Shown one piece after another: positions 5,436-12,867 of a DNA stretch of 13,488 nt (within the stretch, counting starts at the first letter, position 1; each line of letters begins with the position of its first letter). The notes below the pieces were generated by a model. That model had not been told where the DNA came from. It worked only from the letters and a program-made list of their open reading frames with translations, and did no database searches. Where the stretch lies: the IMG/VR virus record IMGVR_UViG_2534681835_000038, positions 1 to 13,488 of that record, one strand, 5' to 3'. A program made the translations under genes and the position numbers. Source of the stretch: a virus. Lineage: Duplodnaviria; Heunggongvirae; Uroviricota; Caudoviricetes.

Positions 5436-5471
5436 GGTGTCAAGTTTCCCCAAAGTTATTCAAAAAGTCAA
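5436..5471 (-). promoter_or_regulatory. pR'-like late promoter with Q-utilisation (qut) region
   Basis: Minus strand TTGACT-TTTTGAATAACTTTGGG-GAAACT-TGACACCAATAATGGG aligns almost position-for-position with lambda pR' (TTGACT-TATTGAATAAAATTGGG-TAAATT-TGACTCAACGATGGG) as I remember it. It lies 43 nt downstream of the Q stop. Confidence 0.55.
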
Positions 5472-5513
5472 TATTATGCCGTTAATATGTTGCCATCCGT
5501 GGCAATCATGGCG

Positions 5514-6137
5514 CTAACGTGTGATCGCATTCAAAATGTTGTCTGCGATTGACTCTTCCTTGTGGCATTGCACAACCAGAGCGTCATACAGCGGCTTAAC
5601 AGTGCGTGACCAGGTGGGTTGGGTAAGGTTTGGGATTAGCATCGTCACAGCGCGATATGCGGCGCTTGCTGGCATTCTTGAATAACCGACGCCTTTACAT
5701 CTTCCGCACTCTTTCTCAGCAACTATCCCCCACTGCTCTGTTTTGGCTATATCAACCGCACGGCCTGTACCGTGGCAATCTCTGCATCTTGCGCCCGGCG
5801 TAGCGGCACTACGGCAATAATCCGCATAAGCGAATGTTGCGAGCACTTGCAGTACCTTTGCCTTAGTATTTCCTTCGAGCTTTGCCACACCACGGTATTT
5901 CCCCGATACCTTGTGTGCAAATTGCATCAGATAGTTGATAGCCTTTTGTTTGTCGTTCTGGCTGAGTTCATGCTTACCGCAGAATGCAGCCATTCCGAAT
6001 CCGGCTTGTGATTGCGCCATCCCCATAGCAGCCATCACATCAGTACCAGAAAGAGAGTCAGAAGCCGTAGCCCGTGGTGAGTCGCTCATCATCGGGCTTT
6101 TTGGCGAATGAAATTTAGCTACGCTTTCGAGTCTCAT
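5514..6137 (-). CDS. Q: Late-gene antiterminator Q (lambda-type)
   Basis: 207-aa translation is essentially identical to lambda Q along its full length, including the zinc-binding CRDCHGTGR...ECGRCKGVG region. ATG overlaps the ninI stop (ATGA). Confidence 0.95.
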
Positions 6138-6798
6138 GCGCCTTCTCCCTGTACCTGAATCAATGTGAGGTTTCCGCAGAACACTGCGCCAGTATCGATA
6201 TACATCTGGTTGGCAAATTTGAGTGGTTTCACTGCTGGCGTATGACCAAAGATGAACGTGTCCGCGCCTTTGATTTCTTTCACGATCCCGTCTTGTGAGT
6301 TGCTGATTCGTTCGCGGTTCCAGATTACCTGCTGATGATCAACTGGCTTTCCAAACTCGTATTTATCACAAGGATAATCGGCGTGGCAGATGACATATTT
6401 TTTCCTTTACTCACCAGTTCGATGATTAACGGAAGTTCATCTGCTTTATGGGCAAGAGCTTTAGCCAGAATTTCTTTGTCGTAATCGAGATTAAAGAACC
6501 AGCCACCGCCATTAAGCAGCCAGTGATTGACGTTTCCACGCTCTGATAAGCCATCAATCATCATTTGCTCATGGTTTCCACGTACAGCTCTGAACCAGGG
6601 GAATGTGATTAATTCCAGGCATTCTACGTTCTCTGTACCGCGATCAACCAAATCGCCCACCGAGATAAGCAGGTCTTTTTTGGTGTCGAATCCTATCGTC
6701 TCCAGTTTTTTCATCAGGTTCGTGTAGCATCCGTGCAGATCGCCAACTACCCAAATATTTCGGTATTTGCTGCCATCAATTCTTTCGTAGATATTCAT
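6134..6798 (-). pseudogene. ninI: Ser/Thr protein phosphatase (lambda PPase / NinI) with a -1 frameshift in a homopolymer run
   Basis: Residues 1-132 ([25 protein letters not shown]...GNHEQ...[10 protein letters not shown]) match lambda phosphatase. The frame is lost at the T6 run 6398-6403 (A6 on the coding strand). The rest of the protein (YVICHADYP...[37 protein letters not shown]) is encoded intact in the -1 frame down to the TGA overlapping Q. Confidence 0.8.
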
Positions 6799-7397
6799 GC
6801 AACCTCACTTCTGCTGTTTCGCAGTTTTTTAAGTTTCTGTTGATACTCCGCCTTGATGGCCCTGCACTCTTCGACAGTCCAGCGATAGCGGTTATGGTTT
6901 GATTCGATTTCCTCTACTGCTTCCTGCCCGATGCGGCTAATCAGTTCGACGCGATACGGAACGAGATTTCCGCTTTTGTGCTGGTTGCACACCACGCATT
7001 GCTTGTGAATATTGCGTTCATCAAATCGGAGTTGAGGTGCCGCAGCAGTTGTCCGGTAATGTCCGGCATCCCACTGAGCAGACGTGAGCGTTCCGCACGA
7101 GATACATGGTAAGTCGCGGTCTCTTTCTCTGATGAAGGCGTTTACGGCTTGTTGGGCTTGTTTAATCCAGTAACTGCGGGGCTTTAAGGCGAGTTTTCGA
7201 ATCTTCAGTTTATCTTTCTGTTTCTGCTCCTCTCGTCGTAGTTTCTTCTCTGCTGCTTTTTCCGCTTTTTCGCGTTCTTTACTTCGTCGTTCGAGTGCTA
7301 TCTTGGTTCCACAAATCTCATTACACCAATATTGATTTTGATATTTTGGTATAAACCATTCATTGCAACATTTACATTTCCTTCGATAGATTCGCAT
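6795..7397 (-). CDS. ninG: NinG (Rap-like recombination protein), re-initiated with a new N-terminus
   Basis: From [23 protein letters not shown] to the C-terminus the protein is near-identical to lambda NinG. The N-terminal 25 aa ([29 protein letters not shown]) are AT-rich and diverged but keep the Cys pattern. ATG 7395-7397 has a strong SD (AAAGGAG, 7-nt spacer) located inside the 3' end of the HNH ORF. Stop overlaps the ninI start. Confidence 0.85.
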
Positions 7398-7938
7398 AAG
7401 TGCTCCTTTCGTTGCCGGAAAAATCACCGTAATACTTATCTCGGGCTTCTTCAGCAACTAGTACCGCTAACTCCAGATCATCAAAGCATCCGAAGTGTTT
7501 ACTCTTGCCATGGAATCCTAGCCTAACATTCCATTTTTTCTGTCGTTTGTGCCAAGTAACCCCTCTGCAACCTGATTTGCTATTCTTTCGGATCCTTATA
7601 TTTCTTGAATTTTCTATTGGCAGGCATTCTCTTAAATTTTCTGGCCTATTGTCGGTCCTAATTCCATTAACGTGGTCAATTTGACCAGCAGGCCAACGAT
7701 TATGAGTTATGTAAAAAACTAAGACGTGAGTTTTATATCTACGCCCATCTATCATGATCATTGAATAACCGTTGGAATCAAAAGTTCCAGCAACACTATT
7801 TAATGCTATCCTTCCCTGAGTGGGAACTTTCCATCTAAATACCCCGGTAGATTTATCGAAACTTAGTAACTCAAATATCCTTTTAACAGTTAAATCTTCT
7901 CTTTTACGGTTACATCGTCTTCGCGCTGGTTTAGCCAT
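7372..7938 (-). CDS. HNH homing endonuclease with C-terminal AP2-type DNA-binding domain, fused in-frame to the first 9 codons of ninG
   Basis: Starts MAKPARRRC (identical, protein and DNA, to the lambda ninG start) then an AT-rich HNH body: TGVFRWKV..., HNH motif [20 protein letters not shown]2-like [48 protein letters not shown]. The ORF-track upstream extension to 8019 is rejected. Confidence 0.8.
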
Positions 7939-8136
7939 CGCCTTCTTCCTCCGTAATGGTTTTCTGAATTTGGCCACCTGAACAGAGCTCACCAAAGCTA
8001 TGGATGTCGGTATTTCCACAATACCAAGATGGCGAAAATAACTGCATGATAAGCCTCAGGGAAAAGGGAAGACACTACCCCCGATAATTCAGAAACAAAT
8101 CGAAATACATGAACTAAAGAAAAAACCACAACAAAC

Positions 8137-10994: not shown

Positions 10995-11150
10995 GCCGCC
11001 CTCCTGACGCCCTGCCCGATCGCCATCAATGCCGCTTTGGATCAGTTCGCGATAAAGGTGAATATCGGCAATGAATAACAATCCTCGCACTCGCGGGGAT
11101 TTCTTTTATCTGAACTCGCTACGGCGGGTTTTGTTTTATGGAGACAAGAA

Positions 11151-11495
11151 ATGTCAGATTTGGCTATGAAGGTTTTGAAATGGCAATCGACTGGCGATGT
11201 TGGCATCAGTAGCGCAACTCTTGCCTCAATCGCATGTGGACTGAAAAAGAATATCTATGGTCATCACTTCGGCGCTCCACATGACGCAGCAGACTTCCGG
11301 CGATGCGTTGCACTTGTTGAGCAGATTCCAGAAATCAGAGATTCATTCGACAAGGTTGCAAAGCGCGTTCCGGCATTCAAAGGCATCCTCAACGAATGGG
11401 ATTCCCTCGTCGCTCTGTTGAAGTCTGAAATGAAGATACACGGAAACAAAGCACCAGAGACTTACAGAAGAATTAGCGAGCTACGCAAGGACTAA
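11151..11495 (+). CDS. Hypothetical phage protein (114 aa) directly upstream of xis, in the position of lambda Ea8.5
   Basis: ATG with SD GGAGA (7-nt spacer); same strand as xis/int; GC content like the lambda-derived genes. No family recognised. Confidence 0.6.
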   Translation: MSDLAMKVLKWQSTGDVGISSATLASIACGLKKNIYGHHFGAPHDAADFRRCVALVEQIPEIRDSFDKVAKRVPAFKGILNEWDSLVALLKSEMKIHGNKAPETYRRISELRKD

Positions 11496-11553
11496 CCACA
11501 GCCTCACACTCAATGAGGCCTGTTCATTTCTCAAGATATCCAGACCTACCATT

Positions 11554-11576
11554 GCCGCATCAATGCGGCTTTTCTT
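11554..11576 (+). terminator. Putative intrinsic terminator between the 114-aa gene and xis
   Basis: GCCGCA-TCAA-TGCGGC hairpin followed by TTTTCTT. Confidence 0.4.
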
Positions 11577-11600
11577 GCGTGTAATTGCGGAGACTTTGCG

Positions 11601-11819
11601 ATGTACTTGACACTTCAGGAGTGGAATGCACGCCAGCGACGCCCAAGAAGCCTTGAAACAGTTCGTCGATGGGTGCGCGAATGCAGGATATTCCCTCCTC
11701 CGGTTAAGGATGGAAGAGAGTATCTGTTCCACGAATCAGCGGTAAAGGTTGACTTAAATCGACCAGTAACAAGTAGCCTTTTGAAGAGGATCAGAAATGG
11801 GAAGAAGGCGAAGTCATGA
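11601..11819 (+). CDS. xis: Excisionase Xis (lambda-type)
   Basis: 72-aa translation [70 protein letters not shown] is near-identical to lambda Xis; overlaps the int start as in lambda. Confidence 0.95.
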   Translation: MYLTLQEWNARQRRPRSLETVRRWVRECRIFPPPVKDGREYLFHESAVKVDLNRPVTSSLLKRIRNGKKAKS

Positions 11820-12867
11820 GCGCCGGGATTTACCCCCTAACCTTTATATAAGAAACAATGGATATTACTGCTACAGGGACCCAAGGACGGGTAAAGAGTT
11901 CGGATTAGGCCGAGACAGGAGGATAGCAATCACTGAAGCAATACAGGCCAATATTGAGTTGCTATCCGGGAACAGGCGTGAGTCACTGATAGACAGAATT
12001 AAAGGCGCTGACGCAATCACTCTTCATGCGTGGCTTGACCGATATGAAACAATCCTCAGCGAGAGGGGTATCAGGCCGAAAACTCTACTCGACTACGCCA
12101 GCAAAATCAGGGCAATCCGAAGAAAATTGCCGGACAAACCGCTCGCTGACATATCAACGAAAGAGGTGGCAGCAATGCTAAACACCTACGTAGCAGAAGG
12201 TAAAGCGGCTTCCGCAAAATTAATCAGGTCAACCCTTGTTGACGTTTTTCGTGAGGCAATAGCCGAGGGGCATGTGGCTACGAATCCGGTAACAGCAACC
12301 CGCACAGCAAAATCAGAAGTAAGGCGTTCAAGACTGACAGCTAATGAATATGTCGCGATTTACCATGCAGCCGAACCGCTCCCAATCTGGCTGAGGCTGG
12401 CAATGGATTTGGCTGTCGTTACAGGGCAGAGAGTAGGCGATTTATGCAGAATGAAATGGTCAGACATAAACGACAACCATCTTCACATTGAGCAGGGTAA
12501 AACAGGGGCTAAGCTCGCCATTCCGCTGACGCTAACGATTGACGCGCTCAATATCTCATTGGCTGATACACTACAGAAATGCAGGGAGGCCAGCGGCAGT
12601 GAAACAATAATTGCATCAACGCATCACGAACCGCTTTCCCCGAAAACAGTATCTAAGTATTTTACAAAGGCGAGAAATGCATCTGGACTCTCATTTGATG
12701 GAGACCCGCCAACATTCCATGAACTGCGCAGCCTGTCGGCGAGGCTATACCGGAATCAGATTGGCGATAAGTTTGCTCAACGTCTTCTCGGGCATAAATC
12801 AGATTCAATGGCGGCGCGTTACAGGGACAGTCGCGGGCGGGAGTGGGACAAAATTGAAATATCATAA
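11797..12867 (+). CDS. int: Tyrosine integrase Int (lambda-type)
   Basis: 356 aa. N-terminal arm-binding domain is identical to lambda Int over about 50 aa ([55 protein letters not shown]); catalytic domain conserved ([11 protein letters not shown]...[22 protein letters not shown]) but more diverged. Confidence 0.95.

What the first reader, a model, noticed from the sequence alone, without database searches (positions are those of the whole stretch)
5436..12867. Prophage remnant retaining Q, pR', a complete lysis cassette and int/xis but no repressor, replication or early-left genes
Between ninG/HNH (about 7938) and the genes upstream of xis (about 11150) there is no cI, cro, cII, O, P, N, exo, bet or gam; only AT-rich cargo. 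Head and tail genes would lie beyond the IS-disrupted terminase, left of the window. Yet Q, the pR'-like promoter, pinholin, SAR endolysin, Rz/Rz1, xis and int all look intact. An element that can still lyse the cell and excise but cannot replicate or repress is unusual. Either Q expression is held off by something other than cI, or the lysis module has been retained by the host (for example, regulated autolysis to release cargo products).
Basis: inference. Interest (0 to 1): 0.5.

Follow-up and report, generated by a model that had tools for sequence, protein, structure and literature searches.

The report
Decayed lambdoid prophage remnant in yfaT
This is an ordinary, heavily deleted lambda-like prophage of enterohaemorrhagic E. 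coli O111:H8; its leftover lysis and excision genes are intact, but the promoters and regulators that would switch them on are gone, as in the well-known DLP12 remnant of E. coli K-12.

Summary
The window is E. coli O111:H8 strain 8E. It carries a 16.8-kb lambdoid remnant inserted in yfaT.

- Lambda-type Q (98% identical to lambda Q) and a pR'/qut-like site.
- Pinholin, SAR endolysin and Rz/Rz1, each 95-98% identical to proteins of phages 434 or HK544.
- HK022-type xis and int (98%), with attL and attR both present.
- No cI, cro, cII, N, O, P, exo, bet or gam anywhere in the element.
- The early-region deletion junction is at 11042/11045. A complete relative with the same Int has about 14 kb there.

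**Corrections**
- The lysis cassette (2506-3652) lies outside the stated span.
- There are no head or tail genes left of the window, only IS1203, nleG, a transposase fragment, nleA and attR.
- The AT-rich cargo is one 590-aa moron gene, normal in Stx1 phages and frameshifted here.
- ninI is also frameshifted in the window.

**Interpretation**
The "unusual" reading fails. E. coli K-12 DLP12 has the same architecture. O157 Sakai prophages Sp3 and Sp8 also lack the repressor yet keep Q and lysis genes. No repressor is needed. Q has lost pR and N, so pR' transcripts should stop at two strong terminators before the holin gene. xis has lost pL, and pI keeps its cII box without a cII. Already known; low interest.

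The parts
1..678 (+). Right part of IS1203 (IS629-type). It cuts the terminase small-subunit gene, and on its other side lie nleG, nleA and attR.
   Evidence: Identical to the IS1203 copy in L002; annotated.
679..962 (-). 5' fragment (about 94 codons) of the terminase small-subunit (Nu1-like) gene
   Evidence: phrog_57 terminase small subunit; the intact 169-aa version is in sibling L002.
1146..1157 (-). cosN, an exact match to the lambda 12-mer GGGCGGCGACCT
   Evidence: the phage 434 genome end aligns from 1158.
1357..1551 (+). ylcI/DUF3950 gene
   Evidence: Pfam DUF3950; 95% identical to DLP12 YlcI.
1739..2356 (-). rha-family regulator gene
   Evidence: Pfam Phage_pRha and ORF11CD3.
2506..2943 (-). 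Rz i-spanin gene, with the embedded Rz1 o-spanin gene at 2559-2744
   Evidence: Pfam Phage_lysis covers the full length. Rz is 95% identical to phage HK544 Rz. Rz1 has the lipobox VSAC and one L11P difference from HK544.
2940..3437 (-). SAR endolysin gene (phage-21/RrrD type); E35, D44 and T50 are present
   Evidence: Pfam Phage_lysozyme; 97% identical to phage 434 and 96% to DLP12 RrrD.
3437..3652 (-). Class II pinholin gene with dual starts M1 and M4
   Evidence: Pfam Phage_holin_2_1; 98.5% identical to the holins of phages 434 and 2B8.
3690..3718 (-). Intrinsic terminator just upstream of the holin gene
   Evidence: Terminator scan; -16.2 kcal/mol, z -3.4.
4069..4087 (-). First strong intrinsic terminator downstream of pR' (8-bp stem with 7 G-C pairs, followed by U8)
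   Evidence: Terminator scan; -17 kcal/mol.
4274..5261 (-). 247-aa membrane protein gene (4518-5261) and tciB-like DUF3927 gene (4274-4432). These morons lie between pR' and the first terminator.
   Evidence: 100% identical to phage 434 proteins and 96-98% to 2B8; DUF3927; phrog_1521.
5427..5471 (-). pR'-like promoter with a qut-like Q-binding element and a -10-like pause element
   Evidence: Aligns with lambda pR'/qut and is identical to phage 2B8.
5514..6137 (-). Lambda-type antiterminator Q gene, intact
   Evidence: 203/207 identical to lambda Q; Pfam Antiterm.
6134..6798 (-). ninI Ser/Thr phosphatase gene, frameshifted in the window
   Evidence: T6 here versus T7 in the RefSeq record of the same strain and in three relatives.
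6795..7938 (-). ninG (6795-7397) and HNH endonuclease gene (7372-7938)
   Evidence: Pfam NinG and HNH_3; HNH is 99% identical to phage AU6Stx1.
8133..8221 (.). (AAATAG)n simple repeat, variable between strains
   Evidence: TRF; 13 copies here versus 6-8 in relatives.
8510..10308 (+). AT-rich 590-aa moron gene of unknown function, split by a 1-nt deletion at 9430
   Evidence: Intact in L002 and in Stx1 phage AU6Stx1; phrog_9230.
10812..10994 (-). ninE
   Evidence: Pfam NinE.
11042..11045 (.). Junction of the deletion that removed the early-left, immunity and replication regions
   Evidence: Homology to L002 jumps from 25086 to 30738. Phage homology ends at 11042. The intact relative L013 has about 14.2 kb here.
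11080..11131 (+). Two terminator-like hairpins upstream of orf114, xis and int
   Evidence: Terminator scan. The region is HK022-like, and an HK022 record annotates a tL4 terminator under the match.
11151..11495 (+). orf114, a conserved gene upstream of xis
   Evidence: 98% identical to the HK022 homologue; phrog_1229.
11575..11588 (+). cII box TTGCGTGTAATTGC, at the position of the pI promoter
   Evidence: Pattern search.
11601..12867 (+). xis (11601-11819) and int (11797-12867), both intact
   Evidence: Pfam Exc, Phage_integrase and Arm-DNA-bind_1; 98.6% and 98.0% identical to HK022 Xis and Int.
12868..12954 (.). attL: P' arm plus the 15-bp core CTTCCATGTCATAAG (12940-12954)
   Evidence: K-12 yfaT aligns to both ends of the element with a 15-bp overlap. 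The arms align with HK022 attP. Core located.

Best explanation
This is a defective ('grounded') lambdoid prophage of EHEC O111:H8, about 16.8 kb long, integrated in yfaT by an HK022-type integrase. Two large deletions shaped it. One removed about 14 kb between the gene upstream of xis and ninE, that is the early-left, immunity and replication genes (junction 11042/11045). The other is associated with IS1203 and removed everything between the start of the terminase small-subunit gene and the effector cargo (nleG, nleA) next to attR. What remains is int-xis-attL, a nin-Q-pR'-lysis block, cos with a terminase stub, and the effector genes. The lysis block is intact but should be transcriptionally orphaned. 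In lambdoid phages Q is a delayed-early gene, transcribed only from pR with N antitermination, and both are deleted here. Without Q, transcripts from the constitutive pR' should stop at the strong terminators at 4087-4069 and 3718-3690, before the pinholin gene. No repressor is therefore needed to keep the cell alive. Likewise xis depends on pL, which is deleted. The int promoter pI keeps its cII box, but the element has no cII. The element is therefore expected to be silent for both lysis and excision. It most likely persists through clonal inheritance, and perhaps through selection on nleA and nleG. Shown: the gene content, the intactness of the genes, the deletion junctions, the terminators and the precedents. 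Inferred: the transcriptional silence and the reason for retention.
For: Source and extent of the element. The lysis, Q, int and xis genes are intact and 95-98% identical to those of phages 434, HK544 and HK022 and of lambda. No early genes occur anywhere in the element, with positive controls. A sibling prophage at the same att site in strain AUSMDU00014361 still has ninB, ren, P, part of O, the ea genes and head genes. An intact Stx1a phage with the same Int has about 14.2 kb at the junction, including N, cII, O and P. Other O111 strains show further deletions next to the IS. Terminators lie between pR' and the holin gene. The Q 3' end plus pR' segment is single-copy in O111 genomes, so no co-resident prophage is likely to supply a matching Q. 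Promoter-like sites are not enriched: 16 found versus 24.4 expected. Precedents are DLP12 and Sakai Sp3 and Sp8.
Against: No expression data were available. Weak read-through into Q cannot be excluded. It could come from the host yfaA-yfaT operon, which reads into the element on the same strand as the late genes, or from spurious promoters in the AT-rich moron. Q, the lysis genes, xis and int are intact in every O111 genome examined, while ninI, the moron, rha, the terminase gene and (in strain 11128) the 247-aa gene carry lesions. That pattern is compatible with selection. A rough estimate says about 5 lesions over about 13 kb would miss these roughly 3 kb about one time in four by chance.
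Confidence: 0.8

Rival explanations
1. The host has domesticated the Q-pR'-lysis module. Like the DLP12 cassette of K-12, it would be expressed at a low, regulated level, for example under envelope stress, and would contribute to envelope turnover, vesicle production, biofilm formation or release of cell contents.
For: The DLP12 lysis operon is reported to be controlled by its Q-type antiterminator, RpoE and Hha, and to affect vesicle production and biofilm (PMC7918800 and the references it cites; PMC6379469). The cassette here is intact in all O111 genomes examined, although neighbouring genes are eroded. It shares 86% DNA identity with DLP12 from essD into rzpD.
Against: The O111:H8 genomes are nearly clonal (99.9% identity), so intactness carries little weight. 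The region upstream of the holin gene is not similar to DLP12, so the reported DLP12 control region is not shared. In the sibling prophage L002 the Rz gene is annotated as frameshifted. No promoter for Q could be identified.
Confidence: 0.1
2. The remnant depends on helper phages. Co-resident lambdoid prophages would supply regulators in trans (cII for pI, Xis/Int, Q, terminase acting on cos), so that the element is excised, expressed or mobilised when they are induced.
For: Many defective O157 Sakai prophages are excised and released on induction (PMC2669165). This element keeps attL and attR with HK022-like arms, a pI cII box and an exact cosN. The host genome matches the window at 30 places, so it carries many related prophages.
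Against: In O111 genomes the Q 3' end plus pR'/qut segment occurs once only, and Q proteins are specific for their own qut sites (established knowledge). The element has no replication genes. At 16.8 kb it is far below the size a lambda-type head packages (established knowledge). pI would give Int without Xis.
Confidence: 0.07
3. It is a phage-inducible chromosomal island (PICI-like satellite) rather than a decayed prophage.
For: The size is small, and it has int/xis, a cos site and cargo genes.
Against: It has no replication or primase module and no repressor. The gene order is colinear with lambdoid phages. Both deletions are documented by less-deleted siblings at the same att site. It carries Q and a full lysis cassette; that PICIs lack these is recalled knowledge and was not checked here.
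Confidence: 0.01

Closest known systems
Cryptic lambdoid prophage DLP12 of E. coli K-12
   Same: The architecture is the same: int, missing immunity and replication region, ninE and other nin genes, Q, moron(s), a phage-21-type holin, RrrD-type SAR endolysin and Rz/Rz1, ylcI, a terminase small-subunit gene, missing structural genes, and cargo at the far end. Endolysin is 96%, holin 83% and YlcI 95% identical. DNA identity is 86-97% over the lysis and cos-ylcI segments.
   Different: The att site differs (argU versus yfaT), as do the integrase family member and the Q type (QuuD versus lambda Q). The Rz/Rz1 allele differs (55% identity). The cargo differs (ompT and appY versus nleA and nleG). 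In DLP12 xis is a pseudogene, whereas here it is intact.
Defective lambdoid prophages of EHEC O157 Sakai (for example Sp3 and Sp8)
   Same: They lack CI/Cro (and, for Sp3, replication) yet retain Q and a complete lysis gene set. They show IS insertions and deletions and carry T3SS effector cargo (PMC2669165).
   Different: The Sakai prophages mostly keep their structural genes. This element has lost all of them and is much smaller.
Phages 2B8 and 434 (late regulatory region)
   Same: The Q-pR'-membrane protein-TciB segment is 98.7% identical to 2B8 over 1361 nt. The membrane protein and TciB are 100% identical to those of 434, and the holin and endolysin are 97-98.5% identical.
   Different: Both are complete phage genomes. 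2B8 is annotated with a repressor, cII, O and P genes. Only the late region of 434 was read here. 434 has a Q82-type Q followed by a terminator that is degraded here and in 2B8.
Phage HK022 int-xis-attP module
   Same: Int is 98.0%, Xis 98.6% and orf114 98.2% identical. The attP arms align.
   Different: The core (overlap) sequence differs, CTTCCATGTCATAAG versus the HK022-type core, and so does the chromosomal site, which here is yfaT.
Stx1 phage AU6Stx1 (nin region)
   Same: The block ninE, 590-aa moron, HNH, ninG is about 98% identical at the DNA level.
   Different: The moron is intact there. The Q type differs, and stx1 follows Q.

Membership tests
Lambdoid prophage (defective) | Lambda-like gene order: att-int-xis ... 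nin genes-Q-pR'-lysis-cos-terminase | tested here: met
   ORF map with Pfam assignments; colinear with lambda, 434, 2B8 and HK544.
Lambdoid prophage (defective) | Integrated between directly repeated att cores that interrupt a host locus | tested here: met
   A 15-bp core lies at both ends. K-12 yfaT spans the empty site.
Lambdoid prophage (defective) | Essential modules missing (immunity, replication, morphogenesis) | tested here: met
   tblastn is negative for 12 early genes with positive controls. The annotation of the whole element shows no structural genes.
Lambda-type Q antitermination module | Q protein of the lambda type (Pfam Antiterm, about 207 aa) | tested here: met
   203/207 identical to lambda Q.
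Lambda-type Q antitermination module | pR' with a Q-binding element between -35 and -10 and a -10-like pause element in the initial transcribed region | tested here: inconclusive
   By sequence, 17 of 21 positions of the lambda qut site are kept. The -10 is GAAACT versus TAAATT, and the pause element is AATAATGGG versus AACGATGGG. The sequence is identical in the complete phage 2B8. Function was not tested.
Lambda-type Q antitermination module | Terminator(s) between pR' and the late genes that Q must override | tested here: met
   Strong hairpin-plus-U-tract terminators at 4087-4069 and 3718-3690. There is none in the first 1.3 kb, where the 434-type terminator is degraded.
Pinholin / SAR-endolysin lysis cassette (phage 21 type) | Class II holin with the dual-start motif | tested here: met
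   Pfam Phage_holin_2_1; the sequence begins MYQMEK.
Pinholin / SAR-endolysin lysis cassette (phage 21 type) | Endolysin with an N-terminal Gly/Ala-rich SAR domain and the E-D-T catalytic triad | tested here: met
   The sequence shows residues 8-27 [20 protein letters not shown] and E35, D44, T50. Pfam Phage_lysozyme. That E-D-T is the catalytic triad of this endolysin type is recalled knowledge.
Pinholin / SAR-endolysin lysis cassette (phage 21 type) | Rz i-spanin with an embedded Rz1 lipoprotein o-spanin | tested here: met
   Pfam Phage_lysis. The embedded 61-aa ORF has the lipobox VSAC, and Rz is 95% identical to HK544 Rz.
Pinholin / SAR-endolysin lysis cassette (phage 21 type) | Causes lysis when expressed | not testable with these tools
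   Needs ectopic expression.
Lambda/HK022 tyrosine-integrase excision module | Int with an arm-binding domain and the catalytic R-K-H-R-H-Y residues; Xis; attL and attR with arm sites | tested here: met
   Pfam domains. The 8 differences from HK022 Int are at positions 137, 234, 261, 267, 275, 278, 303 and 356. None of these coincides with R212, K235, H308, R311, H333 or Y342 (numbering recalled from lambda). The arms align.
Lambda/HK022 tyrosine-integrase excision module | A promoter that supplies Xis and Int together (pL with antitermination) | tested here: not met
   The region upstream of orf114 ends at the deletion junction. No N or pL region remains, and two terminator-like hairpins lie at 11080-11131.
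PICI-type phage satellite | Own replication module and master repressor, and no lysis genes | tested here: not met
   No O, P or repressor-type genes were found by tblastn. Pfam scans found no primase or replication domain in any ORF scanned. A full lysis cassette is present.

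The most novel reading that the evidence does not exclude
The only lambda-type Q-pR'-lysis unit in the O111:H8 chromosome may have been kept by the host as a DLP12-like regulated envelope or autolysis module. It could be fed by read-through from the yfaA-yfaT operon or by a stress promoter. IS-mediated erosion from the left has stopped short of it in several lineages.
Probability: 0.08. Interest if true: 0.35.

Novelty: already known. Interest (0 to 1): 0.1.

Why it matters
It matters little as a discovery. Defective lambdoid prophages that keep int, Q and lysis genes while lacking immunity and replication genes are textbook objects, and the same locus is present in the O111:H- strain 11128 genome (RefSeq NC_013364.1) and in more than 50 closed genomes. 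The practical value is in annotation. The locus is an effector islet (nleA, nleG) derived from a phage, not an inducible prophage. Its intact late genes can serve as a reservoir for recombination with incoming lambdoid phages, including Stx phages.

Tried and rejected
- Rfam gathering scan of the whole window found no family, and ARAGORN found no tRNA.
- PADLOC gave nothing for the moron, the membrane protein, orf114 or rha, and only a sub-threshold HNH hit.
- Pfam gave nothing for the 590-aa moron or for its two halves.
- The AlphaFold2 model of the 590-aa protein, built from a 16-sequence alignment, had mean pLDDT 41.6. No fold search was run on it.
- I looked for a lambda-like tR' just downstream of pR' and found none. 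The 190-nt leader folds no better than shuffled sequence (z -0.49), and the 434-type terminator is degraded.
- I tested whether a co-resident prophage could supply the same Q. A second match in O111 genomes covers only the 5' part of Q, not the 3' end plus pR'. Its location was not determined.
- A literature search for a described yfaT prophage gave nothing specific. The O111 11128 genome paper did not turn up in the held library, so I could not give that paper's name for this prophage.
- An assembly artefact is rejected. The same junctions occur in independently finished genomes.

Full report
**Source and extent**

The window matches the chromosome of E. coli O111:H8 strain 8E (NZ_CP077465.1, 1690479-1703967, reverse strand). 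The only difference is a one-base deletion. At least 80% of the window is present in 54 complete genomes, mostly O111:H8, O111:NM or O111:H-, among them O111:H- strain 11128 (RefSeq NC_013364.1).

With 18 kb of flank the whole element can be seen. It interrupts yfaT, a DUF1175 gene in the yfaA-yfaT-yfaS-yfaQ-yfaP cluster next to gyrA. E. coli K-12 yfaT aligns to both ends of the element with a 15-bp overlap.
- The int-proximal core, CTTCCATGTCATAAG, is at window 12940-12954.
- The other core, CTTCCATGTCAGAAG, lies 16,793 bp to the left in the genome.
- The element is therefore about 16.8 kb.
- Left of the window it holds only the rest of IS1203, an nleG-family gene, a transposase fragment, nleA and the second att site.

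**Anatomy of the window** (ORFs; Pfam; PHROGs)

Reading the late strand (minus) from right to left, the genes are:
- ninE, 10812-10994.
- An oppositely oriented AT-rich moron, 8510-10308.
- An (AAATAG)n repeat, 8133-8221.
- An HNH endonuclease gene, 7372-7938.
- ninG, 6795-7397.
- ninI, 6134-6798.
- Q, 5514-6137.
- A pR'/qut-like site, 5427-5471.
- A 247-aa membrane protein gene, 4518-5261.
- A tciB-like DUF3927 gene, 4274-4432.
- Two strong terminators, 4087-4069 and 3718-3690.
- The pinholin gene, 3437-3652.
- The SAR endolysin gene, 2940-3437.
- Rz, 2506-2943, with Rz1 embedded at 2559-2744.
- rha, 1739-2356.
- ylcI, 1357-1551 (on the plus strand).
- cosN, an exact lambda 12-mer at 1146-1157.
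- The first ~94 codons of the terminase small-subunit gene, cut by IS1203 at about 678.

On the plus strand at the right end lie orf114 (11151-11495), xis (11601-11819), int (11797-12867) and attL.

**Are the retained genes intact?**

| Gene | Comparison |
|---|---|
| Q | 203/207 identical to lambda Q |
| Pinholin | 98.5% to the holins of phages 434 and 2B8; keeps the M1/M4 dual start |
| Endolysin | 97% to phage 434, 96% to DLP12 RrrD; SAR segment and E35/D44/T50 present |
| Rz | 95% to phage HK544 Rz |
| Rz1 | Lipobox VSAC; one L11P change in the signal peptide relative to HK544 |
| Int | 98.0% to HK022; none of the 8 differences falls on a catalytic residue |
| Xis | 98.6% to HK022 |
| orf114 | 98.2% to HK022 |

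A reconstructed attP aligns with HK022 attP through both arms and differs in the core.

Not everything is intact:
- ninI is frameshifted in the window. It has T6 where the RefSeq record of the same strain and three relatives have T7.
- The moron is split by a 1-nt deletion at 9430.

**Is the early region really missing?**

I used twelve early proteins of the complete phage 2B8 as tblastn queries: exo, bet, gam, kil, N, cI, cro, cII, O, P, ren and ninB.
- None gave a hit in the window or anywhere in the 16.8-kb element, while ninG and Q hit as controls.
- The same queries found O', P, ren and ninB in a sibling prophage.
- They found N, cII, O, P, ren and ninB in an intact Stx1a phage that carries the same Int.

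The sibling sits at the same yfaT site in strain AUSMDU00014361. It keeps ninE, a methyltransferase gene, ninB, ren, P and a truncated O. Then comes IS1203, followed by the ea-type genes, orf114, xis and int. On the other side it keeps terminase and head genes.

Alignment against the sibling puts the window's deletion junction at 11042/11045. Two unmatched bases (CA) lie at the joint, and there is no IS scar. Phage homology also stops at 11042. In the intact Stx1a phage the corresponding interval is about 14.2 kb.

Other O111 genomes share this junction but differ at the left end:
- In strain 7-32 9A, IS1203 abuts a truncated rha gene.
- In strain 11128, rha abuts nleG with no IS between them.

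The remnant has therefore been eroding stepwise, partly through IS-adjacent deletions.

**The 'AT-rich cargo'**

It is one gene. The intact 590-aa form lies between ninE and HNH in the sibling and in the Stx1 phages AU6Stx1 and SH2026Stx1. It is thus an ordinary moron of the nin region, not something that replaced the early genes.

It belongs to phrog_9230, of unknown function. It has no Pfam or PADLOC match. Its homologues, all unnamed, are confined to E. coli, E. albertii, Salmonella and Providencia. An AlphaFold2 model was too poor to use.

**How the late block is controlled**

The sequence just downstream of Q aligns with lambda pR':
- The -35 is TTGACT, followed by a 17-nt spacer holding a qut-like element that matches lambda at 17 of 21 positions.
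- The -10 is GAAACT, where lambda has TAAATT.
- AATAATGGG stands where lambda has the sigma-dependent pause element AACGATGGG.
- The whole 1361-nt Q-to-tciB segment is 98.7% identical to the complete phage 2B8, so this arrangement is not a decay product.

Phage 434 has a strong terminator between its Q gene and the membrane-protein gene (-13.3 kcal/mol, followed by U8). The homologous stretch here and in 2B8 has lost it (-3.5 kcal/mol). The first strong terminators after pR' are at 4087-4069 (-17 kcal/mol, U8) and 3718-3690 (-16.2 kcal/mol).

From established lambda biology:
- pR' is constitutive, and its transcripts terminate unless Q modifies RNA polymerase at qut.
- Q itself is transcribed only from pR with N antitermination.

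Both pR and N are gone here. The expected state is no Q protein and no read-through into the pinholin gene. The membrane protein and TciB may be expressed constitutively from pR'. No repressor is needed.

I asked whether another prophage could supply the same Q:
- A 758-nt Q-plus-pR' query finds two places in O111 genomes, including strain 8E.
- A 261-nt query covering only the Q 3' end and pR' finds one place in the same genomes.
- So the second match lacks the part that matters.

Promoter-like sites are fewer than in shuffled sequence, 16 versus 24.4. No promoter for Q is therefore evident.

The host yfaA-yfaT operon reads into the element on the late strand. A transcript would have to cross about 1.8 kb antisense to int and xis, and then the antisense moron, before reaching Q. 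I consider productive read-through unlikely, but it is untested.

**Excision**

In lambda, xis and int are co-expressed only from pL. The pI promoter gives Int alone and needs cII.
- The cII box TTGCGTGTAATTGC is present 26 bp upstream of xis.
- The element has neither cII nor pL.
- Two terminator-like hairpins, at 11080-11131, lie between the junction and orf114.

Excision would therefore need factors supplied in trans.

**Comparison with known elements**

DLP12 of E. coli K-12 has the same plan: intD, a degraded xis/exo region, no immunity or replication genes, ninE, rusA, quuD (its Q), a moron, essD-rrrD-rzpD/rzoD, borD, ylcI, nohD, a terminase fragment, and then cargo (appY, ompT). It shares 86-97% DNA identity with the window over the lysis and cos-ylcI segments.

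For O157 Sakai, Asadulghani et al. (PMC2669165) report:
- Sp3 and Sp8 lack CI and Cro.
- Sp3 also lacks replication functions.
- All 11 lambdoid prophages encode Q and a full set of lysis genes.

The DLP12 cassette has been reported to respond to its Q-type antiterminator, RpoE and Hha, and to influence vesicle production and biofilm (PMC7918800; PMC6379469). It is not new, and nothing here supports it specifically. The O111 genomes are too clonal for conservation to be informative, and the region upstream of the holin gene is unrelated to that of DLP12.

**Verdict**

The gene-content observation is right, with corrections:
- The lysis cassette lies outside the stated span.
- No structural genes lie beyond the window.
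- The cargo is a pseudogene.
- ninI is frameshifted.

The interpretation that this is an unusual element needing a special means of silencing is not supported. It is a typical grounded lambdoid prophage, best regarded as a phage-derived nleA/nleG islet with orphaned late genes. Novelty: already known. Interest: low.

Noticed in passing
window 6397-6403: ninI has a T6 run where the RefSeq record of the same strain and three relatives have T7. The window therefore encodes a truncated 157-aa phosphatase. This may be a sequencing or version difference, or a real variant.
   Followed up: yes
window 8510-10308 (frameshift at 9430): The 590-aa AT-rich moron has unnamed homologues only in E. coli, E. 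albertii, Salmonella and Providencia. Its N-terminal ~125 residues are Ser/Thr-rich and modelled at very low confidence, with no helix longer than nine residues. It is unannotated everywhere and is a pseudogene in O111. From memory, those genera carry type III secretion systems, so it may be an uncharacterised effector. The structure model was too poor to test this.
   Followed up: partly
window 8133-8221: The (AAATAG)n repeat upstream of the moron varies between strains. There are 13 copies in 8E, 8 in 11128 and AUSMDU00014361, and 6 in 7-32 9A and phage AU6Stx1. The 'hypothetical protein' annotated over it in RefSeq is a translation of the repeat.
   Followed up: partly
window 5261-5427 and 4069-4087: The terminator that follows Q in phage 434 is destroyed here and in phage 2B8. 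The 247-aa membrane protein and TciB-like genes therefore lie in a terminator-free leader of the constitutive pR'. They may be expressed in lysogens without Q.
   Followed up: partly
window 11797-12954; L013 231-245: The Int is 355/356 identical to that of Stx1a phage NIID112183, which is flanked by the core CTTAAGGTGAATAAG (HK022-like by the alignment). This element instead uses CTTCCATGTCA(T/G)AAG in yfaT. The same integrase thus goes with a different overlap region and chromosomal site.
   Followed up: partly
window 12862-13488: Integration replaces the last ~25 residues of YfaT with phage-derived sequence. It also separates yfaA-yfaT from the downstream alpha-2-macroglobulin gene (yfaS) and from yfaQ and yfaP.
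   Followed up: partly
window 1146-1157: An exact lambda cosN 12-mer is retained next to the truncated terminase gene, in an element far too small to be packaged on its own.
   Followed up: yes
window 5837-5850 and 11575-11588: Two cII-type boxes (TTGC-N6-TTGC) survive, although the element has no cII. They lie at the positions I recall for lambda's paQ (antisense within Q) and pI (upstream of xis).
   Followed up: no
L001 17423-18636; L003 11423-12676; L012 14793-15930: The left boundary of the phage part differs among O111 strains. In 8E, IS1203 sits in the terminase gene. In 7-32 9A, IS1203 abuts a truncated rha. In 11128 there is no IS, and rha abuts nleG. This shows repeated deletions, in part next to the IS.
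   Followed up: partly
window 2559-2744: The Rz1 signal peptide carries L11P relative to phage HK544. The effect on lipoprotein export is unknown.
   Followed up: no
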